A stretch of 63,607 bases of DNA from a virus (taxonomy: Duplodnaviria > Caudoviricetes): IMG/VR virus record IMGVR_UViG_3300043172_000883, positions 1 through 63,607 of that record, one strand, 5' to 3'. A program made the position numbers and the translations under genes. The notes beneath the pieces were generated by a model. The model searched no databases, was not told the DNA's origin, and saw only the letters and a list, made by a program, of their open reading frames with translations. Positions within the stretch are counted from its first letter, which is position 1, and each line of letters starts with the position of its first letter. Shown here one piece after another: positions 2,671 to 62,475 of the stretch.

Positions 2671-2913
2671 ATGAGTGAAGATAAGGTCTTAAGAGATGAT
2701 AATACTTTGGCATTTAATAATTTTGAATCAATTGATCGAGTAACAGTATATAGTTATCGAGTAGATTATTCTAGATTTAGATTATTTTGGAGAATCTATT
2801 ATAGGGTTTGGAGAATTTATCATAGAATAAGAGAGAAAGAGGAAATACTAGGCATTGATCGTTCGCCTAATGAGAATTGGAGCGATTCGTATAGGATAAG
2901 GAATTTAGAATGA
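2671..2913 (+). CDS. Small protein derived from a major capsid protein fragment
   Basis: LRDDNTLAFNNFESIDRVTV and EEILGIDRSPNENWSDSY align with this genome's capsid segments LTQDADTLAGVNLESIDRLTI and EDIFGIDRSAVSWADPY; start at 2671 inferred from the GGAG RBS and coupling. Confidence 0.75.
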   Translation: MSEDKVLRDDNTLAFNNFESIDRVTVYSYRVDYSRFRLFWRIYYRVWRIYHRIREKEEILGIDRSPNENWSDSYRIRNLE

Positions 2914-3314
2914 GTGAAAAAGCAAACTGCCCGCATTGCGGGGAAGAATATACCAAACGAGGTATGAATAGGCACATCAGCGCATGTAAGAAGAAACTGG
3001 CATTTCCAGAATTTCATAAAGGTGGAATTGTCAAGAAAGAGAATAAGATCATAGTTGTGGGAACTCCAGGACCAGGTGAGGATATTTTGAAACGGGAATT
3101 TATATCTGAGGAATTATCGGCACTTTCCCATGAGCCATCAATTGCAATTGAATTCAAAAGGGAATTTATGGAAGAACCAGTGAGTGATAAGATGAAAACG
3201 CCTTCCCAAAAAGAACCTTCAAGAATGGCAACAATTGATGATCAAGGACCTAAGAAACTGAGCTGGTGGTATCTATTTTCTGGAAAGTTCAAATTCAGGA
3301 GAAAGAAGCAATGA
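2910..3314 (+). CDS. C2HC Zn-finger protein with a tape-measure-like FHxGGxV motif
   Basis: CPHC...H...C at the N-terminus; FHKGGIV...GPGEDIL. Confidence 0.6.
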   Translation: MSEKANCPHCGEEYTKRGMNRHISACKKKLAFPEFHKGGIVKKENKIIVVGTPGPGEDILKREFISEELSALSHEPSIAIEFKREFMEEPVSDKMKTPSQKEPSRMATIDDQGPKKLSWWYLFSGKFKFRRKKQ

Positions 3315-3703
3315 TGTCTGACAATATTGAAAGATTGACCCCCATCGTTGCAAGAGATGAATTAAAACTGATGGAGTTAAAGGAACGGAAAGATCAGTTT
3401 TCCCTAATACATAACATATTGGTCGAATTTTTGAGATGGATAATGCTCATTGCATTCATATGTATTATTTCAAGCATTATTAGCCTCCCATTTATCATAT
3501 TTTTCCCTTTTATTTGGAAAGCTTCAGTTTTTATGCTTATATTCTCAATATTGGCATTGTTGTTGGCTGGAGCTTTGGTGGGCGTAACTGGTAGATGGAA
3601 AACAGAACTTCAAATTAGGGAGATTAGAAAACAATTGAGCACGAATCGCCAATTATTGGAGTTCTTGATTAAGTTGGAGGATAAGAAAAATGCCAGTACT
3701 TGA
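3266..3703 (+). CDS. Membrane protein (2 TM); true start probably ~3311
   Basis: Two long hydrophobic segments. Confidence 0.65.
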   Translation: MVSIFWKVQIQEKEAMMSDNIERLTPIVARDELKLMELKERKDQFSLIHNILVEFLRWIMLIAFICIISSIISLPFIIFFPFIWKASVFMLIFSILALLLAGALVGVTGRWKTELQIREIRKQLSTNRQLLEFLIKLEDKKNAST

Positions 3704-5106
3704 TGTTAAGAAACAGTTCAAGCCATATTTCGATAGGGACAGGCCAGAACCATATCCCTACAAGGATCCCAGTAATTGCAGTCATAGCAGATTACGCAAG
3801 GACAGACATCTATTCAATACTATTAAACGAGCATGTCCAGATTGTGGATCCAGGTTCAGATTTGTCAGCCAAAGTTCTCGATTGAAGGGGCTATTTGCAT
3901 GAGCCACAATACCATTGACGATATGGATTTTGCTACAGATGGAGAGCATCACGCCATCGATATGGCCATTAATCTTGATGTTCGTTGTACGAAGTGTGAT
4001 AATCGGTATCCCATTGAAGAGGGATCCTGGGATGAGGATGGATATCACATCAAGATCAAGCCACATATCTGTGTCTGGATAGATGATGAATTGGAAGAGA
4101 AAATTGATAAGATTAAAGAGGAGCTACTTAAATGACTGGTTTACATACAATAGATTTAGGGCTTCAAGATATCGAATTGGATGTTGATGATTGTAGATTA
4201 ATTTTTAAATCCATATCTCTTGGTGGTGTGAATATTAATAAATTATATGTTACTATTTGTAAAGAGGATATGATTAAATTGGTTGAACAAGTACTTACGG
4301 AGCTGAAAAAATGACTTACGGTTACGAGGATTGGGTTGAACTCGATTGTTTAATTGAGCATATGGGTAATCATATATTCCATGAGGACATATACGAACTG
4401 GAAAAACATGAATTTGAGAAGTTCCAGAAAGCCAGGGATTTTATCAAAACAGCACTAAAAATTCATACTGGTGCTAAATTGGTGTACAGTGAGGTTAGCA
4501 AAACATATTATATCGCAAATATGTGGTATCATCACCGCGAAACTGATCTTATTGTTGCGATTTCCAAACGAGAGGCCACAGAGGAAGAGGTTAAAAAATA
4601 TGCTAGTGCCAATTTGAAGAGGACCACCAGCCAGATAAGGGATTAACATGAGCAAACTAATACATATTGTTGACGATGAGATGTTAAGCTGTGAGGATTT
4701 CGATAAAGAAATTGACGATTATGTAAGTAATGATTGCAGCTTCAAATTACAATTCCAGAATCTATGCGAGAAATGTAGAGAAAGGGAGGCAAGCCAATGA
4801 GTAGCAATAAAAAAATAACATTTTATTTTGCAAAGGATTCAGCTCATTGTGGATCATGTGGTGAACCGATTGATGGACATCATGGAAAAATGGTAAGTTG
4901 TGATAGAATTTGGAGGAAACCACCGATGCAAAAAAATGATGCTATTACCTTTGCCAAGAAATATCTTGAAGTTAGAAAAGTTGAACAAATGCACCCTATA
5001 AATATCCCTGTACATTATAAAACCCCAAACCAACTAAATGAGAAATTAGAACATGTTTGGAATGTAGCTGTGGAATATATATTATTGGACATCATTCCTT
5101 ATTTGT

Positions 5107-5337
5107 ATGGGGAGGCATTGGACTAATATGACCAAACGAGATCAAATATTGCATATTTTGAGAGATGGTCCAGTAAAACATCAAGATTTGATGGGAAAAA
5201 TGGGGATTCGAGCCTTTTATACCGTGTTTTTCATCGATAAACTGCTAGAAGAGGGCAAAATCAAGAAAATTGTGCAACCACTGGATTTACACACAATTTA
5301 CTATGAATTGGTGAAAAAGGATGATAAAGGGCGATAA
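5107..5337 (+). CDS. Winged-helix DNA-binding protein
   Basis: RDQILHILRDGPVKHQDL...IDKLLEEGKI...YYEL wHTH pattern. Confidence 0.65.
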   Translation: MGRHWTNMTKRDQILHILRDGPVKHQDLMGKMGIRAFYTVFFIDKLLEEGKIKKIVQPLDLHTIYYELVKKDDKGR

Positions 5338-6103
5338 TATAGTGATTTATAACCAATCTAGCGAGGATATGAGTGCTATTGATGATGAATCCGTGCATTT
5401 AATCATTGGTAGCCCTCCATATAAGGTAGGCATTGATTATGAGGGCTATGATGACAATCCTTCATGGTCTAGTTATACTATGATTATGCACACGGTACTG
5501 ACAGAATGTTATCGTGTTCTCGTTCCTGGAGGTCGCATTGCTATAGTGGTGGCTAATCTTGGTCGTAAACCATATATACCGCTTAGCGATTTGTTTCGTG
5601 AGTTGCTTGATGGTGCTGGATTTACCAATATGGGAGAGATTATTTGGAGAAAATTCAAAACTAGTAATTCAACCGCATGGGGATCCTATATGAAGGCATC
5701 TCGACCCATGATTCGTGATGTACATGAATATATTGTACTTGCCACGAAGGGGACCGACCCCATGAATATATATGACAAAAGCGATATTACTAAAGAAGAG
5801 TGGGCGCACTGGACCACCAGCATATGGGATATACAACCAGAAACTGGCAAGCAGAAAAAAGGGGTTCATCCAGCACCATTTCCAAAGGAGTTGCCAAAAC
5901 GATTGATCAAATTATTTACACATAAAGGCCATACAGTACTGGATCCATTTGCAGGAAGTGGGACCACGCTTTGGGTTGCAAGGGATCTCTTGCGAAATGG
6001 TATTGGATTCGAGATCAGCGAGAAATATTATGAGAAGATGCGTACCCCCGCAGGAGTGCAAAGACTTGAGAAATTCTGGAGTGGTTGGTTTGAGAAGATC
6101 TAG
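5321..6103 (+). CDS. Beta-class amino-DNA methyltransferase (probably N4-cytosine)
   Basis: Motif IV SPPY near the N-terminus, HPAPFP, motif I VLDPFAGSGTT near the C-terminus. Confidence 0.92.
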   Translation: MIKGDNIVIYNQSSEDMSAIDDESVHLIIGSPPYKVGIDYEGYDDNPSWSSYTMIMHTVLTECYRVLVPGGRIAIVVANLGRKPYIPLSDLFRELLDGAGFTNMGEIIWRKFKTSNSTAWGSYMKASRPMIRDVHEYIVLATKGTDPMNIYDKSDITKEEWAHWTTSIWDIQPETGKQKKGVHPAPFPKELPKRLIKLFTHKGHTVLDPFAGSGTTLWVARDLLRNGIGFEISEKYYEKMRTPAGVQRLEKFWSGWFEKI

Positions 6104-6371
6104 ATCGATACGTGGCGATGTTCGTAGATATCGCGAACAAAAAACAGATGATGATAGTGCTGCTAATACATATGAGATTATTACTCCCAGGAAACAAGGC
6201 AAAACCGCATTTGTAACTAATATTCAAGGAGCAACTATTAATGTGACCGCATCGAACGTGGCTGATTTAATGGATCAGTCTAGAGAAGGATGGATATGCG
6301 ATGACAAACAACAGAAGAAGGAAGAGAAAATGCGTAAGTATGTAGAGAAGATGAAGGGGATGAGGAAATGA
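5949..6371 (+). CDS. Hypothetical protein with a terminase-type Walker A-like peptide; true start probably ~6080-6090
   Basis: YEIITPRKQGKTAF; stop coupled to ORF 6368. Confidence 0.45.
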   Translation: MQEVGPRFGLQGISCEMVLDSRSARNIMRRCVPPQECKDLRNSGVVGLRRSRSIRGDVRRYREQKTDDDSAANTYEIITPRKQGKTAFVTNIQGATINVTASNVADLMDQSREGWICDDKQQKKEEKMRKYVEKMKGMRK

Positions 6372-7404
6372 CAAGAAAAGAAAAACCAATATTTTTTACT
6401 AATGATGAGTTACTTATGGTATACAGCGTAATATCTACCACAGCGAAAAATATGCCCATTTCCACTCCAGAACAGCTCAATATAGCATCTGCATCATTAA
6501 AAATTGAACATGAATGTTTCAAAAGAGAATTATCAAGGGGTGTAGGAAAATGATTAAGCGAGTAAGATGCCCCATGTGTAATTATAAAATTACTGATTGT
6601 AAAGAACTGGTTGCTGTATTTGCCTATAAATGTGAGAACACTGCCAAATGCGGGGTATCCTTCTGGATATTCAAGGAGACTAAGAAATGAGCGATAGGAC
6701 CGTATCACACTTTAAAATCGAAGTTAATGAAGAAAGCATGATAATCGGTGTTGAATCAAAAATAGGTGGTGGTGAGAATATAATGATTGGCAAACAATTT
6801 CATAGCATGCCAGATAAAACTTTGGCTGCACTTATCGAAATCAATCTTAATCGATTAATCGCTGATGGTTTGATTCATGTTGAGATAACTGAGAGAGGTA
6901 AGATGGTCATTGATGAGATCACTCGGGTCGATTTTATCAAAGATGCGGAGGATTTCAAATGAAAAGAAATATTGAAGATATTGAAAAATTAAGACAATTT
7001 CTGTGGGACAATTATAATGTTTCAATGTCTAATTATGGAGTACATCAATTAGATAGATATATTTCTATGTTCGTAGAATGGAAAGTAAAGAAGGTGTTTG
7101 ATTAATGAAAAAGAAGAAAATGATTGAGATCAAACAAAAAAATTGCCCCGACTGCGGTTTTGAGATGTCTATGCACATGTTCGATGATGACACAAAACAA
7201 GTATGGTGTGGACCATTATCTACCTGGAAAAAGACGGTTTGGTGTCTCAGTCTTGGACTGATTGATCTTGTTACAATCCCCATAGAAAAAGAAAACAAAG
7301 AAAAATTTAATTTACAAGAATGGATTACCGAAAATCCGGTTAAATTTAATTACATACTGGTTGGCTTGTTATTTATACTAATTGTTGTATTATTTTTGAT
7401 ATAA

Positions 7405-8952
7405 TTGGCACTTTTCAGTCCTCCAGATCAGGAATTAATTTTCGAACCAAATAGTCCACTATCCTTGGCAGCACATCGACAAGCGGCATTTACTCATCTT
7501 CCATATTATCAGAAACATGTTTTGGGTATCGGTATTGCTGATTTCCATGAGGAATGGAATAATCTAGCTATGAACAATCCATATGTGGGTATAATATGCT
7601 CGCGTGGACATATCAAATCAACCTGGTCTCAAAGTCTCAATGCCCAGGAGATGTTGAGCACTCCAGAATTGATCCCGAAAAGTCAGAAACTTTTTCGACA
7701 CTATGAGAATATGACTGTGTGTTATGCCAACGATCAGACAAAAAGATGGCATGAGAATCTTAAATCCATGTTGGAATTCAGTTTTGAGAATCTGGACCTT
7801 GGTTACGAATTTATCAAGGATAATAAACTGGAATTACAACTACGTGGTCGAGCAACCAATGGAAGGGAGAATAAAAGCCAGAGTTTTGGAAAAGGAATGA
7901 CTGGCAATATCCGTATGTCTCATCCCAGTAGGGTCACATGCGATGATATTTTGAATGAACAGATGAGCATCAGTTTTGAAGAAGCTGAACGTAAATTCCG
8001 AGGATCCGTATTGGGGACCATGGTCCCAGGGACACAACTTACCGTGGTAGGAACTATTCTACGTGAGGGTGACATCCTGGATAAAATTAAAAACAAAGAA
8101 ATCGGTGGTCGATTATTCAAAGTAGGTTTCTATCCTGCGATATTGAATAATGAAAAATATGAACTTGGTCTGGAAGAACCACGCGTTTTATGGGAGCACA
8201 AACGACCATTCAGCTATCTTATGGATCAGAAGGATTTACTTGGTGAAATGGTATTTGAGATAGAATTCCTGCTCAATCCAATAAGCGATAAGCTGGCATT
8301 GATACCAAGGCATGTGATGGATACTTGCAAAGATACTAGTCTTATCCTTGGTCGTGGTGCTGCAGAGGGTGCAAAAATTGTCGGTGGTATTGATTTACAG
8401 ATCAGTCCAAGCGATGATGCCGATTGGACCGTTATTGTTTCACTTGAGGTATTGAAAGACAAGTGGAGATTTCTTAATATTCGTAGATTCAGAGGGCTGC
8501 GTTACGATGCACAGTTAAAACAAGTTGATGATGAGTATGGGACCTATAACCACGAATTGATAATTTGCGAGACAAATCAATTCCAAAAAATGTTTGCTCA
8601 GATGCTTGCTGATATGTATGAATATATTCCCATCGAAGAACAAACCACTCATCGATATAATAAACACGATGCCCAAACTGGGATTCCAAGTCTGGCTCAG
8701 TTGTACAGTAAGGGTAAATTGGTAATCCCATGGGGACATAAAGATATTCACACTCCAGAACAAATCAAACATACGCGGGAGATGATGCAAATAGTGATTA
8801 ATGAGGCCGCAAGTTGGCAATATGATAAGGATAAAGGTAAATTTGTATCGCGTGGTAGACATGATGATACGACAATTGGAACCTGGGAGGCAAGTTTAGC
8901 TGCCAGGAAAATAGAAGCTGGTTTCTCTATGAAGATGTTTGGGTCGGTGTGA
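7405..8952 (+). CDS. terL: Terminase large subunit
   Basis: Walker A variant SRGHIKST, Walker B VTCDD, coupling motif VVGT, RNase H-like nuclease GGIDL...D and C-terminal HDD. Confidence 0.92.
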   Translation: MALFSPPDQELIFEPNSPLSLAAHRQAAFTHLPYYQKHVLGIGIADFHEEWNNLAMNNPYVGIICSRGHIKSTWSQSLNAQEMLSTPELIPKSQKLFRHYENMTVCYANDQTKRWHENLKSMLEFSFENLDLGYEFIKDNKLELQLRGRATNGRENKSQSFGKGMTGNIRMSHPSRVTCDDILNEQMSISFEEAERKFRGSVLGTMVPGTQLTVVGTILREGDILDKIKNKEIGGRLFKVGFYPAILNNEKYELGLEEPRVLWEHKRPFSYLMDQKDLLGEMVFEIEFLLNPISDKLALIPRHVMDTCKDTSLILGRGAAEGAKIVGGIDLQISPSDDADWTVIVSLEVLKDKWRFLNIRRFRGLRYDAQLKQVDDEYGTYNHELIICETNQFQKMFAQMLADMYEYIPIEEQTTHRYNKHDAQTGIPSLAQLYSKGKLVIPWGHKDIHTPEQIKHTREMMQIVINEAASWQYDKDKGKFVSRGRHDDTTIGTWEASLAARKIEAGFSMKMFGSV

Positions 8953-12915: not shown

Positions 12916-13209
12916 TCATTCCTCGATCTTCTCCTTGCTTATTATCATAACATCACCAGTGAAATACACATACAACTTATCCAAGTTTTTTAACCCCATC
13001 TTTCGTACAAAATCATGGGGTACTGTCATCTTCATATACTGTCCTTTGATACTGTGGACTGCATATTTGCCCTTATAGAAAAACCATTTGGTTATTGATT
13101 CAATCAAATCATCTTGGTTCATATATATTCGTACGATCGTTCGTACAAAAAGGTTGTTATCGGCTCTCGGTTTAAATACCAACTTCCTAGACTGCTTATG
13201 AATTGACAT
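12916..13209 (-). CDS. AbrB/SpoVT-like transcription regulator
   Basis: MTVPHDFVRKMGLKNLDKLYVY...MIISK matches the AbrB pattern; divergent from the portal gene. Confidence 0.65.
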   Translation of the reverse strand: MSIHKQSRKLVFKPRADNNLFVRTIVRIYMNQDDLIESITKWFFYKGKYAVHSIKGQYMKMTVPHDFVRKMGLKNLDKLYVYFTGDVMIISKEKIEE

Positions 13210-16200
13210 ACCTTGGCACGCACGAAGATTCGGGTATATTTCCTGAACAAGAAAAATATATCACAGAATTGACCAAAGCAATAAATCCTCCGTTTACCAC
13301 ACGTTGGAGAAACAGAATTGCTAGTCGACTTGGCTTTGCACCAAGTATGAAAATGTTGGAAGCTAATAAAATGCTTACCAAACAGCTTCGAAAGATGCAA
13401 ATTATCAATAATCCCATCGCCACCAGGTTCCAAGGTGGTTCAGGTGGTGAGGCCATTGCATACCATCCAAATCAATATGAGCACATGTTTTACTCAGTGC
13501 TTACCAATTCAACTGCACGTCCTATGTTGAATACACGTAAGCGAGAATTATTCAGACAGGGTTTTGAAATCACACCCAAATTCGTTAAGAAGTGTAAGGC
13601 ATGTGAGGCTGATTTTGAATATGAGGTAAAGGAATGTGAGCTTTGTGGATCCTTTGATTTGCGTACACCAAACATTGCTGAGAAAGAATTACTTGAGGAT
13701 CTGATTGTAGAGAAGGTGAACAGGAATAATCAATCTTTGGTTGACGTATTGAAAGAATTACTCGAGGATATGGATATAACTGATGATTGTTGGCTTGCTG
13801 TTCGTAAGAATTACATGGAGATGGATGGTAAGATTATATCTGGGATCCCTATCGAATTATGGCGTGTCAATCCTGCTCATATGGCATTCAGTGTGACTGA
13901 ACACCGAGTAATCGGAGAATATGAATATACTTGTATAGATCATCGTATGTTTATCTCAAGCGATCCTTTTATACCATGTGAGGAATGTGGTAAATCGCTA
14001 CATGCTGTTATCGCTGTACAATATGAGGCGGGTATGCAAGAAATAATATTCAGATTCATTGCTGGAGAAATTATTCATTCATCCATGTATCGACCATCCG
14101 CACTTTATGGCTATCCAGGTGCACTTACACTTTATTATGATCTCAAATTGACCAATAAACAGGTTAAATATATGGCTGATTATTATGATGAGAAGAAGAT
14201 CGCCAATGCTTACCTGATGATACCCACTCGTAATGTCTCCAGTGTTAAAGAACATATGGAGGAGATGAAATTAAAATTACAGAAGGATCCGTATACTATT
14301 CCCTATACTATATACGATCCAGATAGCAAGACTGTCCCACAACTAATACGAATGGATGCCAGTCCTCAAGAAATGCAATTCATGGAGGTTCGTGAGGAAT
14401 CACGTAATCGTATGGGTGCATATTGGGGTGTTGCTCCCATTATGAATAGTGATATGTCCGCTGGTGGTGGACTTAATAATGAGGGTATGCAATTCACCGT
14501 CACCAATCGTGCCATGGAAGATGCTCAAACCACCATGAATAATAATCTGATAAGTCCTCTTACATTGATGTTTAATGTGATGGATTGGGATCTAGGCTTA
14601 CCACCAAGCGAGGAGCAAGATGAGGTGGCTGAGCTGGACCGTCAACTCAAAAAGGATCAAAGTGCGTTGTATAAGCAGCAATTGGGATTCAAAGTATCAC
14701 TACTACCAAATGGAGACTATCGATTTGAACAACCAAGCGAGGAGGAACTTGCGCAACAACAGCAAATGCAACAAATAGGAGAAGGTAATGGTGGTCCCAT
14801 GGGCGAAGGGGATCCTAATGAACAGGATACACCATTTTTTAATAATATCAATCCGCGTGGTGCTGGCAACCAGGCACTTGCGGAGAACCAATTCCAGGGA
14901 AGTCCAACCAAACCACAAGCGGATCATAACCTGGTTAAATTGCTACTGCAGAAGGGAACTCCCATCAAAACAGCCCTAGAAGTGGCTAAAGATCAGAATG
15001 GAGATAAATACAAATTCAATGATGAAATCCCTGATTGGGAATGGTCCGACGATTATGATGTAAAGGAATTTTTAACAGTTACGCTTGATGAGATCAGTCC
15101 ACACCCAGATTTTGAACTCAATGATGATGATATTCTGAAAGAAAGTCCCAGGGTACGACCAGAAACACTGGCTTATTATTTCAATGAGACAGATGAGATG
15201 CAACCGCTGGTGGTTGATGAGAGTTATAATCTACTAGATGGCTATCATCGCCATTATGTACTGAAAAACATGGACCAAAAGGATGTTCGTGTGGTAGTTG
15301 TAGGAGCCAAGTCATTGGCTAAGATGTACAAATTTTTTCTTGCCAAAGTAAAAGATCATCTACGAGCACCACCAGGCGGTGTTAATATACATGGCCAATT
15401 CTATCCTGGAGGACAATTCATTCCACAAGAAGTAATCGATGCAATGTCAGATGAGGAAAAACAGGCAGTGCAACAAGGGCAAGATGTGGGCGGTGAACCA
15501 GGTCAAGAAGAAAAGGAAGGAGATATCGAGGAATACCGAAAAGAGGTTGTTAATGAAAGACAGATCGAGCTAAATGAATATAATAGTATGTTGATGCAAA
15601 CAAATATAGAATTAGAAGGGTTAAATACTAGGCGTGATAAATTATACGAGGCAAATGAAAATTTAAGAAATGTTTTGAATAGAACCGTAAAACAACAAAA
15701 TAGGAAAGATGAAATAAACTGGGAATTATGGGAAATTTCTGATAAGATAACCCAAACTGAATCTGAAGCCACTAAAATAAATGTAAAAATAGAAAACACA
15801 TTAAAAAGAATGAATAACCCAGATTACGATCTAGCAGATAGATTATCTGAAATTGATGAAATAATTCATGCAGCATTAAAAAATGATACAATGAAGAAAA
15901 AATATCCAAGATGGATTAAACGAGAACAAAAAGATCTAGATAAAATTAATGTTGCAATAGTTAAAAAAGATGCCAGCTTGTATGATGTTGATTTTGTAGA
16001 GGATACTTGGGAGGAAACTGAACCAGTTTTGTTAGAAATGAAGGGGTATATGGAAATCAATATCAAAGAGTATAAAGAATCACTGGAGCAAACAGATGAA
16101 ACCAGTTTGGATGAAACTCTTTCAAAATATAATGAGGAGCATAAAGCATTACGAGATTTATCTATCAAAAAGGATGGAGAACATTGGCCATATTATAAAA

Positions 16201-19816: not shown

Positions 19817-21931
19817 ATGAGTGTAGGATCTAGCCAGAGCGAGTTGATGGTAAATCAGCTTTTTAACGAGTATTTTGGAACTGATATCAATTATACCAAC
19901 GTGGACAGGAAACGCAGTCTACGCAAGAGATCCTTTGGCTCTTGGATAGAGACATTCCAGACAAAGGCCATGCAAACACTCATTATTGATGAAGAAAATG
20001 AGGGGCGTGTTTTCAAAGGTATTATCACCAGCGAGGATGTTGATAGTGATAAGGAAATCCAGAACATCGATGATTTTGCTGCCAATATCGACAAGATGAT
20101 GAATAGTGAGCGAGGTGTAATGGTTAGCGTTATCCATACTGATATGTTGCCTGGCAAGGTAGATCATATGGAGAAAACAACCCTTGGATGGATTGCTGAT
20201 AATTATCCACACAAGGCTGAGAAATTGAAAATTAATGATAATAATCGCGATACCAAGTGTATATTCTTCGAGGCTCACATATTTGATGATTATCCAGAGA
20301 TGGATGATTTCATATGGGATATGATTCAACAGGAAAAACTTGATGCTGTCAGCTTACGTGGTGTTGGTATACCAAGTGCAATTAAATGTAGTCTCGATGG
20401 TCAGTGTGGAACTGAGGTGAAAAATACTCGTATCTGGGCTTTGACACTTGCACCAAGCGGAGAACAGGCAGCGGATCGAGCGATAATACTGGAAAAAGTA
20501 AAAGATACTGAATTCGAAGGCAAGCATCCACGGGCTGATGATGGCAAATTTGGGTCCAAGCCAAGTGATAATGATTCTGATAAACCAAGCTCTAAAAAGA
20601 AAGAAGAAATAGACGAAGTGAATTGGGAAGAAGAAGCCAATAAATTGAAGAATATGAATAGAAGAGAGGTGATGTCAACAATATCTGAAATGGAAATAGA
20701 TAAATTAGGCAATCTTACTATTTCAATCAGTAATGCAAAAACATACCGTGATTTCTCCTCTACTATGTGGCGATCTATTATTAGACGATTTAAGAATGAA
20801 CAAAAAAAACTCCCTTCAATTGTTCTTTTTAATATTGTAAAAAATGAACGATCTCTTATCCAATCCGACAATTTGTGGTATTTCAAAGAGAATATGAGCA
20901 AAAACGATTATGGGAAATTGAAACGATTGGCCCAATCGGGTCATATAGATGTGACGGAACTTCATAATCCTAGGAAACCAAAAGATCAATCTAAGATGAG
21001 TAAAGAGGAGATTGCGGTCCTCAAAGAAATACGCAATGAGGTAAATAAAAAAATGCAACTACAAAAAGAGATACCATCTGATCAGGAAAAGATGATGACT
21101 AATGATGAGCCAGAGAGTACTATGGGTATTCTCAAAGAGATACGCGAGAGTGTAATTCAGATAGGCGATAATGTAACTGAAGATAACTCCGAGCTGGAAG
21201 GCGAGGATGTAATGAACGACCCCCTGGAAGAAGGCGAGATGGAATATGATGATTTCGCTGCAGAGGGTGACGAACACGAGGATGATGCCAAGATGGATGA
21301 TGAATCTGAAACAGGCGACCTCGATTCCGAATCATCAATGGATGAAGATTCTGAGTACTCAGAAGATGAATCCGAGGAAACAGACGATGATTATGAGGAT
21401 TCCGACATGGAAAAAGATGATGACATGGAGGATGAATATGAGGAAGATGAATCTTATGAGGATGATGAAGATTCTGATGATGATATAAATATCGACATCG
21501 ATATTGATGATGAGGAAGAAGAAGAGGACATGAAAAAAATGACCGACAAGAAACCAAAAGACCCGCTAGTTCGGATCAGATCATCCGAGCTGAGGGCTTT
21601 AGAGGACAGGGCTACCAATGCAGAGGCTCAACTGATTAAAATGAAACCAGTTGCCGAAAAACCTGACATTGAAGCCATGATTAAAGCGAAAGTTGCCGAG
21701 GAACTAAAAACCCTTGGTGTTCGCAAGACGAAAACACCAGAAATCGGTGCTGATGGCACTGATAAAGGTGATGCAAATGCTGGTGCTGAGACACCCGCTG
21801 CGGTTAAAAAACCCGCTGGACCAACCTTTGGCGAGGTATCCAATCATTTCTTGACAAAAATGAAAAGACCACCTACCAGACAGGAACTGCATGACCATAT
21901 GGTTATGGAGAAAACCCTCCCAGGTGCTTGA
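19817..21931 (+). CDS. Prohead protease fused to an inserted domain and an acidic scaffold region
   Basis: FKGIITSEDVDSDKE, catalytic-like H (VIHT) and S (AVSLRG), IWDMIQQEKL; directly upstream of the capsid gene; long D/E tract. Confidence 0.8.
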   Translation: MSVGSSQSELMVNQLFNEYFGTDINYTNVDRKRSLRKRSFGSWIETFQTKAMQTLIIDEENEGRVFKGIITSEDVDSDKEIQNIDDFAANIDKMMNSERGVMVSVIHTDMLPGKVDHMEKTTLGWIADNYPHKAEKLKINDNNRDTKCIFFEAHIFDDYPEMDDFIWDMIQQEKLDAVSLRGVGIPSAIKCSLDGQCGTEVKNTRIWALTLAPSGEQAADRAIILEKVKDTEFEGKHPRADDGKFGSKPSDNDSDKPSSKKKEEIDEVNWEEEANKLKNMNRREVMSTISEMEIDKLGNLTISISNAKTYRDFSSTMWRSIIRRFKNEQKKLPSIVLFNIVKNERSLIQSDNLWYFKENMSKNDYGKLKRLAQSGHIDVTELHNPRKPKDQSKMSKEEIAVLKEIRNEVNKKMQLQKEIPSDQEKMMTNDEPESTMGILKEIRESVIQIGDNVTEDNSELEGEDVMNDPLEEGEMEYDDFAAEGDEHEDDAKMDDESETGDLDSESSMDEDSEYSEDESEETDDDYEDSDMEKDDDMEDEYEEDESYEDDEDSDDDINIDIDIDDEEEEEDMKKMTDKKPKDPLVRIRSSELRALEDRATNAEAQLIKMKPVAEKPDIEAMIKAKVAEELKTLGVRKTKTPEIGADGTDKGDANAGAETPAAVKKPAGPTFGEVSNHFLTKMKRPPTRQELHDHMVMEKTLPGA

Positions 21932-23175
21932 TTATGGGTATTACACAAGAAACCGTAACCCAAGAACAGATGCAAGGCATTCAAACACATGCCAGGAATC
22001 TGAACACACAGTTGATGGTTAATCAACAGGTAAAGACTGGACGCCCACCCAAAATGGATTCCATTCACGATATGATGAACTATTATTATCCATATCAGAA
22101 CAACCCCAACTATTTCAGTGATCTGAAAAAGATTGATGACCCAGTATTGAGTGATACAACCAATTTCCTGGTCACAACCTATGGGGCCATGTTATTCTCA
22201 CAACTTGATTTGGAGGATAATATCTGGAAATTCCTACCTAAAACCACATGGGACAGAAGAGGTTGGAGAATGCTGACCGCTCGCCATCAAACTGGTGGAG
22301 GTCTTGCTGAAGATGGTGATCTTCCAGAAACTGATATGGCTGATGTTGGTATTGGCAGCGCTGCACCCAAAACGATTGTTCACACATTCGATGCCAGTGC
22401 ACAGGCCATCCTAGAGGGTGATACCGCTGATGACAGTTATGGTAATCCACTCGATGCTCAGCGACCAATTGTGGGTCAAGAGCACACCAAGGACATGAAT
22501 GCCTATCTGACGCAGGATGCTGATACCCTAGCTGGTGTCAATCTTGAATCCATTGACAGGCTAACCATTGATACAGCCACCGTTACCGCATTATCCTACA
22601 CCGCCGACGATGAGGATATATTTGGTATCGATAGGTCCGCAGTATCATGGGCTGATCCTTACAGTGACCACAATAGCGGGTCTGACAGAGATTTCAGTCT
22701 TGGTTTGGTTGATGATTTGCTCAAATCAGTGCGTAGGTATCAAATAAACAGTCCTGGAGGCCAAGGGGTGTTCATCACTGGTGAGGACACTTATGAACGA
22801 TGGAATCGTGAGCTTGCACCACAACAGAGGTTTGATGACAAGGCTAATGTTGCCAGAATAAGTACTGGGTTGAATGGAGTTCAACCAATCGGAGATCGGG
22901 AAACTGGCTTCGAGATTGCCACTTATCGTAAATATCCAGTCGTGATATCCAATGATGTTGCACAGGATACGCTAAGCAGGATTTACTTCTTGTGGCTTGG
23001 TCAAAATGCAACCAATATGAAGGTTCTTGCTCCCACACAGTACTATGAGGCTGGATGGTCGCATGGAGATCCCTTTATTCTTAACAAGTTAGGAACCGAG
23101 GGCGCGTTCGTTACATTCTGTGAATTGAATTGTAAGAACTTCCCAGCAAATGGATCCATCAGGGATCTTAAATAG
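21928..23175 (+). CDS. Major capsid protein (HK97 fold)
   Basis: 415 aa after the protease; YGAMLFSQL...LPKTTWDRRGWR resembles capsids of archaeal tailed viruses; ATYRKYPVVISNDV. Confidence 0.88.
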   Translation: MIMGITQETVTQEQMQGIQTHARNLNTQLMVNQQVKTGRPPKMDSIHDMMNYYYPYQNNPNYFSDLKKIDDPVLSDTTNFLVTTYGAMLFSQLDLEDNIWKFLPKTTWDRRGWRMLTARHQTGGGLAEDGDLPETDMADVGIGSAAPKTIVHTFDASAQAILEGDTADDSYGNPLDAQRPIVGQEHTKDMNAYLTQDADTLAGVNLESIDRLTIDTATVTALSYTADDEDIFGIDRSAVSWADPYSDHNSGSDRDFSLGLVDDLLKSVRRYQINSPGGQGVFITGEDTYERWNRELAPQQRFDDKANVARISTGLNGVQPIGDRETGFEIATYRKYPVVISNDVAQDTLSRIYFLWLGQNATNMKVLAPTQYYEAGWSHGDPFILNKLGTEGAFVTFCELNCKNFPANGSIRDLK

Positions 23176-47275: not shown

Positions 47276-47566
47276 TCATCCTTCTTTCCTCCTTATCTGT
47301 CGTCCACTGATCGCAGGATTATATGCAAATTTAATTGCACCATCCCGTATATTTGGGCTAATTATGACCATCATACCATAGATTACTGTTATACCATAAT
47401 CTTGATACAAAATCACATATTCTGGTTTTACACCATGGTTGTGTATTATACGATCCATCCCCTGTTTCACCTCGTATATCATGGCATGGCGTTCCTGATC
47501 AGCTAGCGGTTCAAGCTTCTTCAATTCAGCTTCCAGTTCTTCTATCTTGTCATCTACATTCATCAT
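47276..47566 (-). CDS. Hypothetical protein with a capsid-like C-terminal peptide
   Basis: TVIYGMMVIISPNIRDGAIKF. Confidence 0.5.
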   Translation of the reverse strand: MMNVDDKIEELEAELKKLEPLADQERHAMIYEVKQGMDRIIHNHGVKPEYVILYQDYGITVIYGMMVIISPNIRDGAIKFAYNPAISGRQIRRKEG

Positions 47567-51662: not shown

Positions 51663-52436
51663 TCATTCAATCTTCTCCAGTGATTGATATTTTTTTCCTC
51701 TGAAATATTTACAACCTTTGATGCCTTTGCATTTATCCCCCTCATGGTCTCCGATGCATGGTTGAAGTACACCTGATTGTTTATAGAAAAATACAATTCC
51801 TAATTCTCTACATTTTTTAAGTATTGGATCCACCCATTCATATTCCATTTTAATCGGTTTCCTATGGGTTGGTCTATCTATTTTTGGTTGGTCAGATTCT
51901 CCACCCACAATTACAAGATCGATTCCTGTAAGATCGATCTCATCCATTGGTCCAAGTAAGGGTTCAAGTGATAGCCATTTTACTGCAGCACTTGTTTTTC
52001 TAAGAAGATTAATTCTACCATAATGTTTGGCAAGTTCAACCGATGTGCCAAACCAAATATTATCATGTAATTTTAGCATGCCTGATTTATCCATCTTCAA
52101 CATTCTACCTGGTCTTTTGGTTAGAATTTGGTATATGTGCTGAGGATGTTTATTAAATAGATTAAACATCTTTTGGATGAAATTATCAGATACGTCCTTA
52201 TTAAAAGTATCAGACATTGAATTAACAAATATTTTGTATGGTTTTTTCCAAGGAATTTCTAGACGATTTGGTAGTTCTTTAACCATATTGAATCCGTCTG
52301 TGTAATTGGGTTGTGTTGGGTTATGTAAATTCCTATTATGCATGGTCCGAGCATAGCACAGATCACAGCCTGCGGATACCTCTTTACATCCAATAACGAA
52401 ATTGCGGGATTTATCAGCCCATTCTACATTTGTCAT
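51663..52436 (-). CDS. DUF5131 (phage Gp37/Gp68) radical SAM-like protein
   Basis: GCKEVSAGCDLCYA, IFVNSMSD, YQILTKRP, LSLEPLL, IVGGES, FFYKQ. Confidence 0.9.
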   Translation of the reverse strand: MTNVEWADKSRNFVIGCKEVSAGCDLCYARTMHNRNLHNPTQPNYTDGFNMVKELPNRLEIPWKKPYKIFVNSMSDTFNKDVSDNFIQKMFNLFNKHPQHIYQILTKRPGRMLKMDKSGMLKLHDNIWFGTSVELAKHYGRINLLRKTSAAVKWLSLEPLLGPMDEIDLTGIDLVIVGGESDQPKIDRPTHRKPIKMEYEWVDPILKKCRELGIVFFYKQSGVLQPCIGDHEGDKCKGIKGCKYFRGKKYQSLEKIE

Positions 52437-57944: not shown

Positions 57945-59080
57945 AAGGGGAATTAATTTTACGAAGATGTGTGAGAACCATTCTATTTTGACAGTTGAAG
58001 ATACGCATGATGGTAGAACGACAATGAAAGTTGAATTACATCTGACTGATGATGAAGTGAAGATACTGGCTACGCGAATGTTATCTGAAGGAGCATTGAG
58101 GATAGTGGTTAAATGATAAAGGCCAAGATCATTATAACTGGTTTTGATGATAGTGAGACTGTGGTGGAATTTACTGTGGAATGCCTAGAGATAATTTTGG
58201 GTGATAATCTAGAGGAGATTACATTGAAACAATGTAAGGTGGTCAAATGAGTAAAGATTGTTCACATCAAACACATTTCATAGATACTGTAACCACTATA
58301 AAAAAAATTGTGGTTAATTTCAATGCTATTAAAAAGGCAGGCCTTGAGAACGTGGAGCACATCAGTTCCGAGACCATGAGAGAATGCCTGGAGTGTGGGC
58401 ATACAGCTAAGGTGATTTTCAGATGAAAGACAAGAAGCTGAATGATTTCATTTGGACACGCAATTTTCTAATATTTGTATTGGTTATTGTGTTTATATGG
58501 GGCTTTGCTATCGGCTTCAGGGTTGGAAAGGCGATTGAATGAGTGATATTAGCGATCAAGTCAGTAATATAGCATCTGCTATTAAAAAAATTGCTGAAGA
58601 AGGATTTGAGGACTGTGATGAAAGAAGAGCAATTGTAGGCGGTTGTGATTTATTATTCATGCTCTCGTTCAAAATAAGGGTAGTGGTATCTGATGAGTGA
58701 AGAAGCGAAACAAATTCTAAATGATGAACTTGCATCGTCCATAGATAAAATGAAGTGTCCTGAATGTGAAGGATCAGTCATAATCTATAAAGAAGGAACC
58801 GATGTTTTTTTAGATTATGCACACAGTATCTATTGCGAAAATTGTAAAATGATATATTCACTCATGGCGTATCATATACTCACGGAGAATAAAAAGGAGG
58901 CCACGAGTGATGATTCGGCAAGACCTTTTCCGACTTATACATTTAAGTCTGGAAGAGATCCGATTATAGTTTTGGCATTTGGTGTGGTCTTCTATCTGAT
59001 ATTTATATTTATACTGGAGACGATTAAATGAGTGAATTCATAATTGGCCTTTTATTAGGATTTACTGTGGTTCTGGGCAT

Positions 59081-59296
59081 ATGTGGGTTTATAGCGTTGT
59101 TAATTGTATGGTTACTGGAGCGATGAAGATGAGTAAATTTAAAGTTTATAGGCAATTTCCGCTATGGAAATTTTGGAAGTTACTACGTTATTGGAAGATT
59201 AGGAGAGCAGTATACAAAATGGATACTGACAAATTCGATGATAAAATGGATGATTTACTCATGGATCTGCTCATTTATGGAGATGCAACGATATGA
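59081..59296 (+). CDS. Small basic/aromatic protein with a portal-like peptide; start probably ~59122-59129
   Basis: WKFWKLLRYWKIRR followed by DDLLMDLLIYGDA. Confidence 0.5.
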   Translation: MWVYSVVNCMVTGAMKMSKFKVYRQFPLWKFWKLLRYWKIRRAVYKMDTDKFDDKMDDLLMDLLIYGDATI

Positions 59297-61103: not shown

Positions 61104-61574
61104 ATGAATATTAAAAATTATACAACTAAGGTTCCTGCATTTAGGACGATAGGTAGAATTGAAAAATATCTACTTGAGATGGGTGCTAGAAACATAACTA
61201 AGAATTATGATGAAAATGGAAGGGCTATAAAAATAAGATTCGGAGTGAATACTAAAACAGGGATGATTCAATTCCAACTCCCTTGTGAGATTCACAAGAT
61301 TTCAAACAGATTACAAGAGTTAAAATCGGATGGGAAAATCAAATCAATTTCATGGAAACTGGCTCGTAGTTCTACACATGCCTATAATCTGGGATGGAGA
61401 CTATTGCAAGACTGGATAGAAGTTCAGCTAACATTGATACAGATTGACCAGGTCAAGCTAGAGCAGATATTTTTGCCCTACGCTTACGATCCAAGAAGCG
61501 ATCGCACGTTCTTTGAGATGGTTGAGGAAGGGAATTACAAATTATTAACTGGAGAAAATAAGAATGAAATTTAA
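61104..61574 (+). CDS. Hypothetical viral protein
   Basis: NYTTKVP...GWRLLQDWIEVQL...QIFLPY; coupled ORF with RBS. Confidence 0.6.
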   Translation: MNIKNYTTKVPAFRTIGRIEKYLLEMGARNITKNYDENGRAIKIRFGVNTKTGMIQFQLPCEIHKISNRLQELKSDGKIKSISWKLARSSTHAYNLGWRLLQDWIEVQLTLIQIDQVKLEQIFLPYAYDPRSDRTFFEMVEEGNYKLLTGENKNEI

Positions 61575-61947
61575 TGATATTAGACGACTAACCCATAATT
61601 TCCCTATTATAACTAGAGGTAGCGACATATTTCTTATACCAGACGAGATAGCAAAAATAGTTTGGGAGGAATATAACAAGGAGTACCCAGGTCAATCATT
61701 TGAAACGATTAAAGAGCGTGGTGGATTTAGTCTACGAGAGATCATCTACTATCTTTACAGTAGGATTGATGGTATGGAGCTGAAGAAATGACCCCCCACG
61801 ATCTTGCCTATGAAGGCAAGCGGTGGTGTGGTTGGTGCGAAAAGCTCTGTTATACTTGGGTAGCTGAATTTGGTGGTAGGGTATGGAGAGAATGCCCCAA
61901 TAACCACAAACTAACAAAAGCATACAAAAAAAAGGAGGTTTACAAAA

Positions 61948-62475
61948 ATGAGTGAATGGGTTAAATGCTTGCGGTGTGGTAATGAATTCACACAAGAGAA
62001 TGAGGGCGACGAGGTGGAAGCATTCGAGGAATGTGATTTATTATGCTTAGTTTGCCAAGAAGAGCAAGCGAAAACAAAGGCCGAGCTTGAATTGATAGAT
62101 GAGCCAGGCGTGCTAGTCCGCTATGATAATCAGATGGAGGAACTTGTAAAATACGGATCCAGTAAACTGATTTTATTGATAGGACCGGATTCGAGGAGTA
62201 GTCCTTTTCCAACGGAGGAATTTAGAAGATTCAATGAAATCTATGGCAAACCTATCAGATATAATAATCAAGAAATCCAATATAAGAACGGAACGAGGAT
62301 GATTTACAATACCTATAAATCGGTTGTTGGCATACGTGGTGTTCATCCAGACATGATTGTAATTGTCAATGTATACCTGTTTGATGTGAAAGAGTGGTGG
62401 AAATTCTTGGATAGGGAAATAAAACCAATGATGACCTGGAATAAAGATATAGTGGTGAAATACTGGAGATGGTAG
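61948..62475 (+). CDS. Zn ribbon fused to a degenerate terminase-ATPase-like fragment
   Basis: CLRC...CLVC; EIQYKNGTRM...GIRGVHPDMIVIVN...IKPMM. Confidence 0.6.
   Translation: MSEWVKCLRCGNEFTQENEGDEVEAFEECDLLCLVCQEEQAKTKAELELIDEPGVLVRYDNQMEELVKYGSSKLILLIGPDSRSSPFPTEEFRRFNEIYGKPIRYNNQEIQYKNGTRMIYNTYKSVVGIRGVHPDMIVIVNVYLFDVKEWWKFLDREIKPMMTWNKDIVVKYWRW

What the first reader, a model, noticed from the sequence alone, without database searches (positions are those of the whole stretch)
2671..62475. Suite of small accessory ORFs encoding fragments of virion hallmark proteins: candidate decoy system
Seen: outside the structural block several small ORFs carry pieces resembling capsid (2671-2913, strong; 47276-47566, weak), terminase ATPase (61948-62475, moderate; 6171-6212, short), portal (59081-59296) and tape-measure C-terminus (2910-3314). 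Three of them also carry a Trp/Phe plus Arg/Lys amphipathic segment and two a Zn finger. Established: terminase ATPase and portal are sensed by Avs STAND NTPases and capsid by CapRel. Inference: a set of non-functional mimics that titrate host pattern-recognition sensors, or that poison assembly of competing viruses.
Basis: partly seen in the sequence, partly recalled or inferred. Interest (0 to 1): 0.82.

Follow-up and report, generated by a model that had tools for sequence, protein, structure and literature searches.

The report
Mini-proteins built from capsid, terminase fragments
In this complete virus genome two small accessory genes are cut-down, non-functional-looking copies of parts of the virus's own capsid protein and DNA-packaging motor, one of them belonging to a conserved family, which suggests that viruses re-use pieces of their core machinery as mimics, although what these pieces do is untested.

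Summary
The window is a complete 63.6 kb tailed-virus genome with terminal repeats. Its capsid protein is closest to archaeal tailed viruses. Two of the six flagged ORFs resemble hallmark proteins.

(1) ORF 2671-2913 (80 aa) matches capsid (MCP) residues 192-257. Smith-Waterman scored 70 against shuffles 29.4±4.3, 0/500. It ranked first of 120 genes against the MCP profile. It belongs to a small-protein family of 8 clear members plus 1 weak; hhalign against the MCP family gives 97.5%, E 5e-12. The family keeps the MCP's invariant residues and C-terminal tail. A variable loop is replaced by a conserved helix.

(2) ORF 61948-62475 is a Zn ribbon plus a TerL-ATPase-like core without P-loop or Walker B acids. 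It scored 37.3 against the TerL profile, shuffles 14.8±2.7, first of 120 genes. All ten structural neighbours listed by the Atlas are Terminase_6N clusters.

The portal, tape-measure and second capsid claims are noise. The 6171-6212 motif is only suggestive (p about 0.03).

Function is untested. I favour competitive mimicry: interference with capsid assembly and DNA packaging, or decoys for host sensors.

The parts
2671..2913 (+). Capsid-fragment mini-protein gene (P0001, 80 aa), member of a conserved small-protein family
   Evidence: BLASTP and SW against own MCP. Family found. hhalign of the family against the MCP family: 97.5%, E 5e-12. GGAG lies 11-15 nt upstream of the ATG, and the ORF overlaps both neighbouring ORFs at start and stop. 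Its own frame has the best codon score.
2695..2745 (+). Block 1 (residues 9-25), homologous to MCP 197-213; holds the invariant E-S-x-D-R
   Evidence: MCP-family invariants D197, A202, E207, S208, D210 and R211 are kept in 7-9 of 9 family members.
2767..2847 (+). Arg/aromatic amphipathic helix (residues 33-59). It sits where MCPs have a variable loop, and 16 residues are extra relative to the own MCP
   Evidence: Gap in the BLASTP alignment. Helix 33-59 is the best-supported part of the AF2 model, pLDDT 68-84. muH 0.87, 7/1000 shuffles. Conserved across the family.
2836..2892 (+). Block 2 (residues 56-74), homologous to MCP 228-245; holds G-I-D-R and the invariant Trp
   Evidence: I234, D235, R236 and W241 are kept in 7-8 of 9 members.
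2896..2910 (+). C-terminal tail (IRNLE), resembling the MCP family's invariant C-terminus
   Evidence: All 61 MCPs end in [IV]RDL[KQEA]. P0025 and P0034 end in RDLK. Among 17,350 background ORFs under 250 aa, the only one ending [IL]R[DN]L[KE] is this ORF.
21928..23175 (+). Major capsid protein (415 aa), parent family of the fragment
   Evidence: phrog_24667 major head protein, 1.4e-58. 34-36% identity to Haloarcula tailed-virus MCPs. At least 560 relatives in viral contigs.
22501..22698 (+). MCP residues 192-257, the segment copied in the mini-protein. It directly follows the long helix 174-195
   Evidence: hhalign columns. DSSP of the low-confidence model. The PDB profile hit 6j3q_A starts at block 2.
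61948..62475 (+). Zn-ribbon plus TerL-ATPase-fragment protein (P0003, 175 aa)
61966..62055 (+). CxxC...CxxC zinc ribbon (Cys 7, 10, 33, 36)
   Evidence: Sequence. Weak zf-CHY and zinc-ribbon Pfam hits, E 0.03-0.7.
62095..62469 (+). TerL-ATPase-like core (residues 50-174). The hhalign core is residues 101-139 (62248-62364). It has no P-loop, and reads IVIVN where the TerL family has IICDD
   Evidence: hhalign. Atlas structure search: 10 of 10 listed rows are Terminase_6N clusters, 117-122 residues aligned.
7405..8952 (+). Large terminase (515 aa). Residues 135-179 (7807-7941) form the motif matched by P0003
   Evidence: phrog_38 9.7e-33, Terminase_6C 5.8e-8. Family alignment A2.
2526..2618 (+). 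Suggestive only: the C-terminal third of the upstream ORF 2313-2678 resembles the MCP N-terminal signature (MCP 42-79), colinear with the fragment gene but in another frame
   Evidence: SW 40 with 28/1000 shuffles reaching it; hhalign 22.1 with 1/100 shuffles reaching it; rank 5 of 120.
6120..6371 (+). Unproven
   Evidence: Empirical p about 0.03.
47276..47566 (-). Flagged as 'weak capsid'. Not supported
59081..59296 (+). Flagged as 'portal'. Not supported. It holds a Trp/Phe/Lys/Arg-rich segment that is not amphipathic
2910..3314 (+). Flagged as 'tape-measure C-terminus'. Not supported. It has a C2HC zinc finger and a basic/aromatic C-terminus

Best explanation
SHOWN. The virus encodes two mini-proteins derived from its hallmark machinery. 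Neither can do the parent's job.

P0001 (2671-2913) belongs to a conserved family. The family keeps only the segment that follows the long (spine-like) helix of the HK97-type capsid protein, with nearly all of that segment's family-invariant residues, plus the capsid's C-terminal tail. The variable loop between the two conserved blocks is replaced by a conserved helix, which in P0001 is strongly amphipathic and rich in Arg and aromatic residues.

P0003 (61948-62475) is a zinc ribbon fused to the central strands of the TerL ATPase core. It has no P-loop, and the Walker B acidic residues are replaced.

INFERRED. Both act by competitive mimicry of conserved hallmark surfaces. The target I think most likely is the homologous machinery itself. 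The capsid fragment would dock onto capsid subunits or assembly intermediates, and the dead ATPase fragment onto the terminase-portal motor. This would disturb capsid assembly and packaging in a dominant-negative way. The probable purpose is to exclude co-infecting relatives, or less likely to time the virus's own assembly. The added helix and zinc ribbon would supply a second activity, such as membrane or nucleic-acid tethering or blocking.
For: Homology of P0001 to the MCP: (the family HMM hits 83 ORFs of at least 250 aa, own MCP included, at the right place, best E 4e-8).

Selection on the fragment as such:
- Eight clear family members (P0001 plus seven others at 38-47% identity to it) and one weak one (28%) share the same boundaries and the same non-capsid insert.
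- The 11 positions that are 100% invariant in 61 MCPs are each kept in 7-9 of 9 members.
- Synonymous sites against the own MCP are saturated (pS 0.89-0.94) while pN in the cores is 0.27.

P0003.

Accessory, sporadic distribution, as expected of a conflict gene and not of a core assembly factor. No stand-alone family member was found within +-10 kb of 80 related MCP genes, in 5 of 5 large related viral records, or in viral contigs scanned with insert-specific patterns.

Both genes lie in the same plus-strand run of small overlapping ORFs that leads, across the terminal repeat, to TerL.

From established knowledge (recalled, not from a call): fragments that keep subunit interfaces commonly act as dominant-negative inhibitors of capsid assembly. 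Examples are the gag-derived Fv1 and enJS56A1.
Against: Nothing here shows binding to anything. Where the fragment sits in the capsid lattice is unknown, because the MCP model was poor (pLDDT 37), so 'interface' is an assumption.

About 60 residues cut out of a fold may not adopt the parent's conformation. The P0001 model is low-confidence outside the helix.

P0003 has no detected homologue, so its conservation is unknown. Its similarity to TerL is not seen by Pfam or PHROGs or by pairwise SW against the own TerL (124/500 shuffles reach it).

The other family members sit on contigs of at most 4.5 kb that I could not fetch, so I cannot say they are viral or that they accompany this MCP family. 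No expression data exist.
Confidence: 0.35

Rival explanations
1. Sensor decoys. The fragments present the conserved, hard-to-mutate epitopes of MCP and TerL to host pattern-recognition proteins (STAND/Avs-like, CapRel-like or Lit-like). They bind without triggering oligomerisation or activation, and so blunt abortive-infection immunity.
For: The fragments keep exactly the family-invariant residues, which is what a sensor should target. MCP and TerL are both documented triggers: Avs1-4 sense TerL and portal, Avs7 senses the MCP, and STAND NTPases are abundant in bacteria and archaea (PMC13581612, abstract and passages seen). CapRel SJ46 senses an MCP (PMC13728456, passage seen). Two different hallmark fragments in one genome, and the sporadic accessory distribution, fit a counter-defence gene. 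The genome invests in anti-restriction: a DpdA-like protein, a radical SAM protein and two methyltransferases.
Against: Avs sensors are reported to recognise whole core folds over extended interfaces (PMC13581612, figure legend and passage), which an approximately 60-residue piece cannot reproduce. Binding is normally the trigger, so a fragment could activate a sensor and not block it. The Gol peptide activating Lit is an example (recalled). The host and its sensors are unknown. My searches found no phage-encoded hallmark-fragment decoy in print.
Confidence: 0.25
2. Exapted pieces with a new, unrelated job. The capsid- and terminase-derived parts are only structural scaffolds. The working parts are the Arg/aromatic helix (membrane or nucleic-acid binding) and the zinc ribbon (DNA or RNA binding), for example in regulation, exclusion at the membrane, or egress.
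For: The insert helix is as conserved within the family as the capsid blocks and is strongly amphipathic in P0001. The downstream neighbours are a zinc-finger protein with a basic/aromatic tail and a multi-pass membrane protein. Zinc-ribbon mini-proteins are abundant in this genome, 22 of 130 genes.
Against: This does not explain why precisely the MCP-invariant charged residues and the MCP C-terminal tail are kept across the family. It also does not explain why two different hallmark proteins were the donors in one genome.
Confidence: 0.22
3. Decaying remnants of duplicated or captured hallmark genes, with no function of their own.
For: The upstream ORF 2313-2678 may carry the MCP N-terminal signature in another frame, colinear with ORF 2671, as a broken gene would (p 0.01-0.03). 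P0003 has no known homologues. A fragment captured from a divergent virus would also show invariant residues and saturated synonymous sites against the own MCP.
Against: For P0001 this is contradicted by a family with the same boundaries and the same foreign insert at only 38-47% identity, which means long maintenance. The ORFs are intact, have in-frame codon bias and an upstream GGAG, and are coupled to their neighbours by overlap.
Confidence: 0.1
4. Chance resemblance or low-complexity artefact.
For: Four of the seven exhaustive-search hits for P0001 are long repetitive proteins that match only its Arg/aromatic repeat. Pfam and PHROGs see nothing.
Against: The MCP match lies outside the repeat. 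It survives composition-based statistics, 500 shuffles and a real-protein null, and reaches E 5e-12 at profile level. P0003 has two independent lines, the profile and the predicted structure.
Confidence: 0.03

Closest known systems
Gag/capsid-derived dominant-negative factors of eukaryotes (Fv1, enJS56A1) (recalled, not from a call)
   Same: A piece or copy of a capsid gene is kept under selection because it interferes with capsids of related viruses.
   Different: Those factors are host-encoded, near full-length gag derivatives. Here a virus encodes an 80-aa piece of an HK97-type MCP with a foreign helix inserted, and interference is not shown.
Satellite- and island-encoded interference with assembly or packaging (P4 Sid, SaPI CpmB and Ppi, PLE TcaP) (recalled)
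   Same: Small accessory proteins that target the capsid lattice or the terminase of another virus.
   Different: As far as I recall, those proteins are not fragments of the proteins they target. Here the candidates are homologous pieces of MCP and TerL.
Full-length MCP paralogues (for example the T4 vertex protein gp24) (recalled)
   Same: Duplication of the capsid gene inside one genome.
   Different: Those paralogues keep the whole fold and are built into the shell. P0001 covers only MCP 192-257 plus the tail.
Capsid and terminase as immune triggers: Avs1-4 and Avs7 (PMC13581612), CapRel SJ46 (PMC13728456), and Gol peptide/Lit (recalled)
   Same: The same two hallmark proteins, and in the Gol case a short capsid segment, are what host sensors read.
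   Different: Those are host sensors with full viral proteins or peptides as activators. A virus-encoded non-activating fragment decoy was not found in print by searches.
Molecular-mimic anti-defence proteins (DNA mimics such as Ocr; the antitoxin mimic ICP1 Gp145, PMC13728456 passage)
   Same: Counter-defence by mimicry and titration.
   Different: Those mimic DNA or host antitoxins, not the virus's own structural proteins.

Membership tests
HK97-type major capsid protein family of this virus (phrog_24667-like) | Significant sequence homology to the family | tested here: met
   P0001: hhalign of family against family 97.5%, E 5e-12. The family HMM hits 83 MCP ORFs. Rank 1 of 120 genes.
HK97-type major capsid protein family of this virus (phrog_24667-like) | Full-length fold (about 370-415 aa; N-terminal signature, long helix, A- and P-domain strands) | tested here: not met
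   P0001 is 80 aa and aligns only to MCP 192-257 plus the last 5 residues. It is a derivative of the family, not a capsid protein.
Large terminase ATPase (Pfam Terminase_6N type) | ATPase-core fold | tested here: met
   Atlas model of P0003 (pTM 0.55): 10 of 10 listed structural neighbours are Terminase_6N clusters, TM by query 0.68-0.73. Both sides are predicted models. hhalign against the TerL family: P 1.1e-4.
Large terminase ATPase (Pfam Terminase_6N type) | Walker A P-loop with Lys-Ser/Thr | tested here: not met
   In the permissive alignment the first strand of P0003 pairs with the TerL strand that follows the Walker A helix. No GK[ST] is present. That part of the alignment is low-confidence.
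Large terminase ATPase (Pfam Terminase_6N type) | Walker B acidic residues | tested here: not met
   P0003 reads IVIVN where the TerL family has IICDD (invariant D180 and D181 in A2).
Large terminase ATPase (Pfam Terminase_6N type) | C-terminal RNase H-like nuclease domain | tested here: not met
   P0003 ends at residue 175 and has no Terminase_6C hit. The true TerL has one.
Portal protein | Homology to the portal family | tested here: not met
   ORF 59081-59296: 77/100 shuffles reach its score, and it ranks 104 of 120 against a portal profile of 32 rows (own portal plus 31 relatives).
Tape measure protein | Homology to the TMP | tested here: inconclusive
   ORF 2910-3314 scored 22.5 against the own TMP, next best 20.5, and 9/500 SW shuffles reach it. 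No TMP relatives were found, so no profile could be built.
Anti-defence decoy of Avs/CapRel-type sensors | Binds a host sensor without activating it and rescues infection | not testable with these tools
DGR template repeat/variable repeat pair | Near-identical DNA repeat that differs mainly at adenines, plus a reverse transcriptase | tested here: not met
   In the DNA of the shared blocks about 9 in 10 synonymous sites differ from the own MCP gene (pS 0.89-0.94), with changes at all four bases. No RT appeared among the 20 large proteins scanned. Not every ORF was scanned.

The most novel reading that the evidence does not exclude
Tailed viruses of archaea (and perhaps bacteria) carry 'hallmark-epitope decoys'. 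These would be conserved mini-proteins that present only the invariant surface patches of the capsid protein and of the terminase ATPase, fused to a blocking helix or zinc ribbon. They would soak up or jam host pattern-recognition immunity (STAND/Avs-like sensors of MCP and TerL) without triggering it. This would be a counter-defence class not yet described.
Probability: 0.22. Interest if true: 0.9.

Novelty: new variant of a known kind. Interest (0 to 1): 0.66.

Why it matters
Capsid protein and large terminase are the least changeable parts of tailed viruses. They are now known to be what many host immune sensors read (PMC13581612). A conserved family of mini-proteins that keeps only the invariant residues of a capsid segment, together with a dead terminase-ATPase piece in the same genome, gives a concrete and cheaply testable handle on two open questions:

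1. Do viruses answer fold-sensing immunity with decoys of their own hallmarks?
2. Do viruses fight related viruses with dominant-negative fragments of shared machinery?

Either answer would define a new accessory-gene class, and a search rule for finding more: small ORFs that hit the genome's own hallmark profiles.

Tried and rejected
- **Pfam and PHROGs** at E<=10 on the flagged ORFs gave no hallmark family.
- **Closest relatives.** megablast of the capsid region against phages found nothing. A single-protein locus search with the MCP found nothing.
- **TerL-anchored loci L002-L009** hold no homologue of any flagged ORF.
- **MCP structure model** was too poor to use (pLDDT 37). I therefore ran no fold search on it, and the position of the fragment in the lattice is not established. 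A single-sequence PDB search with the MCP found nothing. The profile search found only 6j3q_A, and the paper behind it is not in the library.
- **Complex prediction** of the MCP with the fragment family returned 'no answer' (score 0.00, controls not run). It is reported here only and is not evidence either way.
- **RNA runs:** no RNA holder was listed for window 1500-7400. This is not evidence either way, and read laying was therefore not used.
- **tblastn of P0003 against phage genomes** gave 11 records at E 0.9-7. Three are annotated terminase large subunit and four 'DNA helicase/terminase'. The aligned stretch lies around residues 512-590 of a 775-aa jumbo-phage TerL, out of register with the hhalign match, so I do not count it.
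- **P0003 against five related viral genomes** gave one hit, E 0.09, in a primase-like frame and not in TerL. A locus search with P0003 found none.
- **ORF 6120-6371.** A long-gap pairwise test was not significant: 10/300 shuffles and 13 of 63 real proteins reach its score. A PSSM test gave z 4.6, but the positive control P0003 did poorly in it (5/60) and an unrelated ORF (39800-40108) reached z 4.8 with a meaningless alignment. I rejected it as proof.
- **DGR template/variable repeat idea:** rejected.
- **Literature.** Searches found no description of virus-encoded capsid or terminase fragment decoys, or of dominant-negative fragments in phages. In PMC13581612 'decoy' refers only to mass-spectrometry target-decoy searching. 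Supplementary files were not opened and could hold relevant screens.

Full report
**What the window is.** The 63,607-base window is a whole virus record with direct terminal repeats and an estimated completeness of 100%. Bases 3-110 equal 63483-63590. PHROGs and Pfam place these hallmark genes:
- large terminase at 7405-8952 (phrog_38, 9.7e-33; Terminase_6C)
- an unusually long portal at 13203-16826 (phrog_18178, 5.8e-47)
- major capsid protein (MCP) at 21928-23175 (phrog_24667, 1.4e-58)
- tape measure at 28593-30122

The MCP is 34-36% identical to MCPs of Haloarcula tailed viruses and 27% identical to that of a Methanofastidiosa virus (9 of 9 records). An archaeal host is therefore likely, but this is an inference. 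The nearest TerL relatives are at most 42% identical. The minus-strand block 35-55 kb holds a DUF5906 protein, a PD-(D/E)XK nuclease, DUF5131, a radical SAM/B12-binding protein, a DpdA-like protein and a methyltransferase. All flagged ORFs lie in runs of small, often overlapping ORFs. Each has its best codon-usage score in its own frame, as do 96 of 99 small genes overall.

**Checking the six claims.** Pfam and PHROGs at E<=10 name no capsid, terminase, portal or tape-measure family for any flagged ORF. Direct Smith-Waterman comparison with the virus's own hallmark proteins, with 500 shuffles each, singled out one pair. ORF 2671-2913 (P0001) against the MCP scored 70, against 29.4+-4.3, with 0/500 shuffles reaching it. 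The other pairs had 9 to 124 of 500 shuffles reaching their score.

I then built family profiles from fetched loci (own protein plus 60 of the 65 MCP relatives found, plus 31 portal relatives, and plus 20 TerL relatives; no TMP relatives were found) and repeated the test with hhalign:

| ORF | Profile | Score | Shuffles | Shuffles reaching it |
|---|---|---|---|---|
| P0001 (2671-2913) | MCP | 53.8 | 12.9+-3.0 | 0/100 |
| P0003 (61948-62475) | TerL | 37.3 | 14.8+-2.7 | 0/100 |
| 47276-47566 | MCP | 14.4 | 13.5+-2.6 | 35/100 |
| 59081-59296 | portal | 12.1 | 13.6+-2.3 | 77/100 |

A real-protein null uses every gene of at most 400 aa, n=120. P0001 is the top scorer against the MCP profile (next best 22.5), and P0003 is the top scorer against the TerL profile (next best 23.2). 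The 'portal' ORF ranks 104th. The 'tape-measure' ORF is first against the TMP, but at 22.5 against 20.5. An all-against-all BLASTP of 1053 stop-to-stop ORFs found only the P0001-MCP link between a small ORF and a hallmark protein.

**The capsid fragment.** P0001 aligns to MCP 196-249 in two blocks: residues 9-25 and 56-74. They are separated by 16 extra residues of an Arg/aromatic segment. An exhaustive phmmer of 1.84 billion representatives gave seven hits including P0001 itself. Two are small proteins, P0025 and P0028, at 46-48% identity. Four are long repetitive proteins that match only the Arg/aromatic repeat. A profile word search raised the family to eight clear members plus one weak one, 67-112 aa long, all on contigs of at most 4.5 kb.

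All clear members share three features:
- block 1
- a conserved insert of about 30-35 residues that MCPs lack
- in all but the shortest member (P0028), block 2

The family aligns to the MCP family at 97.5% probability, E 5e-12, over MCP 192-257. Its HMM hits 83 ORFs of at least 250 aa in the window and loci at the right place, with a best E of 4e-8. The own MCP (32.3 bits) matches no better than distant ones (33.4 and 32.4 bits).

The 11 positions of this segment that are invariant in 61 MCPs are each kept in 7-9 of 9 family members. P0001, P0025 and P0034 also end with the MCP family's C-terminal motif. All 61 MCPs have that motif, and no other ORF among 17,350 background ORFs under 250 aa has it.

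Against the own MCP, synonymous sites are saturated (pS 0.89-0.94) while pN in the cores is 0.27. On its own this could also fit a recently captured foreign remnant. What rules that out is a diverged family with identical boundaries and the same foreign insert.

In the AF2 model of P0001 (mean pLDDT 57), the insert is a long helix at 33-59 with pLDDT 68-84. In P0001 it is strongly amphipathic (muH 0.87, 7/1000 shuffles). In the MCP the copied segment directly follows the long helix 174-195 of a low-confidence model. The only PDB relative of the family profile, 6j3q_A 'major capsid protein' (E 1e-4), aligns from block 2 onward. By analogy with HK97-fold topology (recalled), this is the stretch after the spine helix that leads into the A-domain. 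That placement is an inference.

The family is sporadic:
- No stand-alone member lies within +-10 kb of 80 related MCP genes.
- None is in 5 of 5 large related viral records, where the model hits only the MCP frames of 376-397 aa.
- None is in viral contigs scanned with insert-specific patterns.

**The terminase fragment.** P0003 begins with a CxxC...CxxC zinc ribbon (weak zinc-finger hits). Its residues 101-139 align to the TerL family's strand-loop-strand that ends in Walker B (TerL 135-179), at P 1.1e-4. Where the family has the invariant acidic pair, P0003 has Val-Asn.

In a permissive alignment, which is low-confidence outside the core, the first strand of P0003 pairs with the TerL strand after the Walker A helix, and the last strand pairs with the strand after Walker B. 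P0003 would then correspond to roughly TerL 100-220 without the P-loop.

Independently, the ESM Atlas holds a model of this protein (pTM 0.55, pLDDT 0.63). All ten listed rows of its structure search over residues 50-174 are clusters dominated by Terminase_6N, with TM by query 0.68-0.73 and 117-122 aligned residues. Nine of the ten meet the service's bar for that name. The nearest named clusters by language-model features are three terminase-ATPase families at 0.86-0.87, which the tool rates as leads only.

Evidence against:
- Pfam and PHROGs see nothing.
- SW against the own TerL is noise (124/500 shuffles reach it).
- No homologue of P0003 was found.
- The best phage tblastn hits (E 0.9-7) fall partly in terminase genes but out of register.

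I put the TerL-derived fold at about 0.75, and the MCP origin of P0001 at about 0.95.

The C-terminal third of ORF 2313-2678, directly upstream of P0001 and in another frame, resembles the MCP N-terminal signature (MCP 42-79). The scores are SW with 28/1000 shuffles reaching it, hhalign with 1/100 reaching it, and rank 5 of 120. If real, 2526-2913 would be a colinear, heavily deleted capsid paralogue split over two frames.

**How it most likely works.** What is shown is this: there are two hallmark-derived mini-proteins that cannot perform the parent function, and one of them has been maintained by selection as a family. What follows is inferred.

Keeping just the invariant residues of a hallmark segment argues that the selected property is recognition by something that normally reads that segment. 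Two readers are plausible: the homologous machinery itself, or host sensors.

I rank dominant-negative interference with capsid assembly and packaging first (0.35). It is the simplest biochemical consequence of such fragments, and it fits the sporadic, accessory distribution. It is probably aimed at co-infecting relatives.

Sensor decoys come second (0.25). MCP and TerL are both documented triggers of STAND-type sensors (PMC13581612, abstract and passages seen; CapRel in PMC13728456, passage seen). However, those sensors are described as reading whole folds, and binding usually activates them.

An unrelated exapted function carried by the helix and zinc ribbon gets 0.22, decaying remnants 0.10 and chance 0.03.

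**Comparison with what is known, and novelty.** P0001 fails membership of the MCP family as a capsid protein, because it is a fragment only. P0003 fails membership of the terminases, because it has no P-loop, no Walker B acids and no nuclease domain. Both are derivatives.

The nearest known analogies are capsid-derived dominant-negative factors of eukaryotes, interference proteins of satellites, full-length MCP paralogues, and mimic-type anti-defence proteins. All of these are recalled, except the sensor and mimic papers cited. None of them is a virus-encoded, conserved mini-protein made of a hallmark's invariant patch plus an added helix. Searches found none in print, and supplements were not seen. 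I rate this a new variant of a known kind. The decoy reading is the most novel case that the evidence does not exclude.

**Verdict.** Interest is 0.66.

Noticed in passing
window 1-127 and 63481-63607: Direct terminal repeat. Bases 3-110 are identical to 63483-63590 at protein level in two frames, and the record is classed as DTR and 100% complete.
   Followed up: partly
window 13203-16826 (portal), residues about 130-177; also 39633-39803 (-): The portal is 1207 aa, and only residues 59-565 match the portal profile. It carries a zinc-ribbon insert that small Zn-ribbon ORFs of the genome resemble. ORF 39633-39803 scores 34.6, P 1.1e-4, against portal 130-165. This may be generic Cys-pair similarity or a shared module.
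   Followed up: partly
window 2785-2826: Two adjacent 21-bp units, identical at 17 of 21 positions, encode FWRIYYR and VWRIYHR. This part of the Arg/aromatic helix of P0001 therefore looks like an internal tandem duplication.
   Followed up: no
window 2313-2678, residues 72-102 (2526-2618): The ORF just upstream of the capsid-fragment gene may keep the MCP N-terminal signature (6 of 8 family-invariant positions match), colinear with the fragment gene but in another frame. p is 0.01-0.03.
   Followed up: partly
window 46010-46777 (-), 48184-49479 (-), 45137-45844 (-), 5321-6103 (+), 51663-52436 (-): A DpdA-like protein, a B12-binding radical SAM protein, two DNA methyltransferases and DUF5131. 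This is a likely DNA-modification (possibly deazapurine) and anti-restriction set.
   Followed up: no
window 46886-47068 (-): The fourth gene with a dense aromatic plus Arg/Lys segment.
   Followed up: no
P0003 (window 61948-62475), Atlas feature search: The 30 nearest clusters by language-model features (0.95) are unnamed viral proteins of 112-120 aa with 54-114 members. Stand-alone terminase-ATPase-like mini-domains may be widespread. No ids were given, so I could not follow this up.
   Followed up: no
window 58411-58539 and 1994-2266: Two small plus-strand frames share 44% identity over 25 residues (E 1.6e-4 within the genome). This could be a small paralogous segment.
   Followed up: no
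window 3266-3703 (+): A multi-pass membrane protein lies directly after the zinc-finger ORF 2910-3314. The capsid-fragment gene therefore heads a short run of genes with membrane-active features.
   Followed up: no
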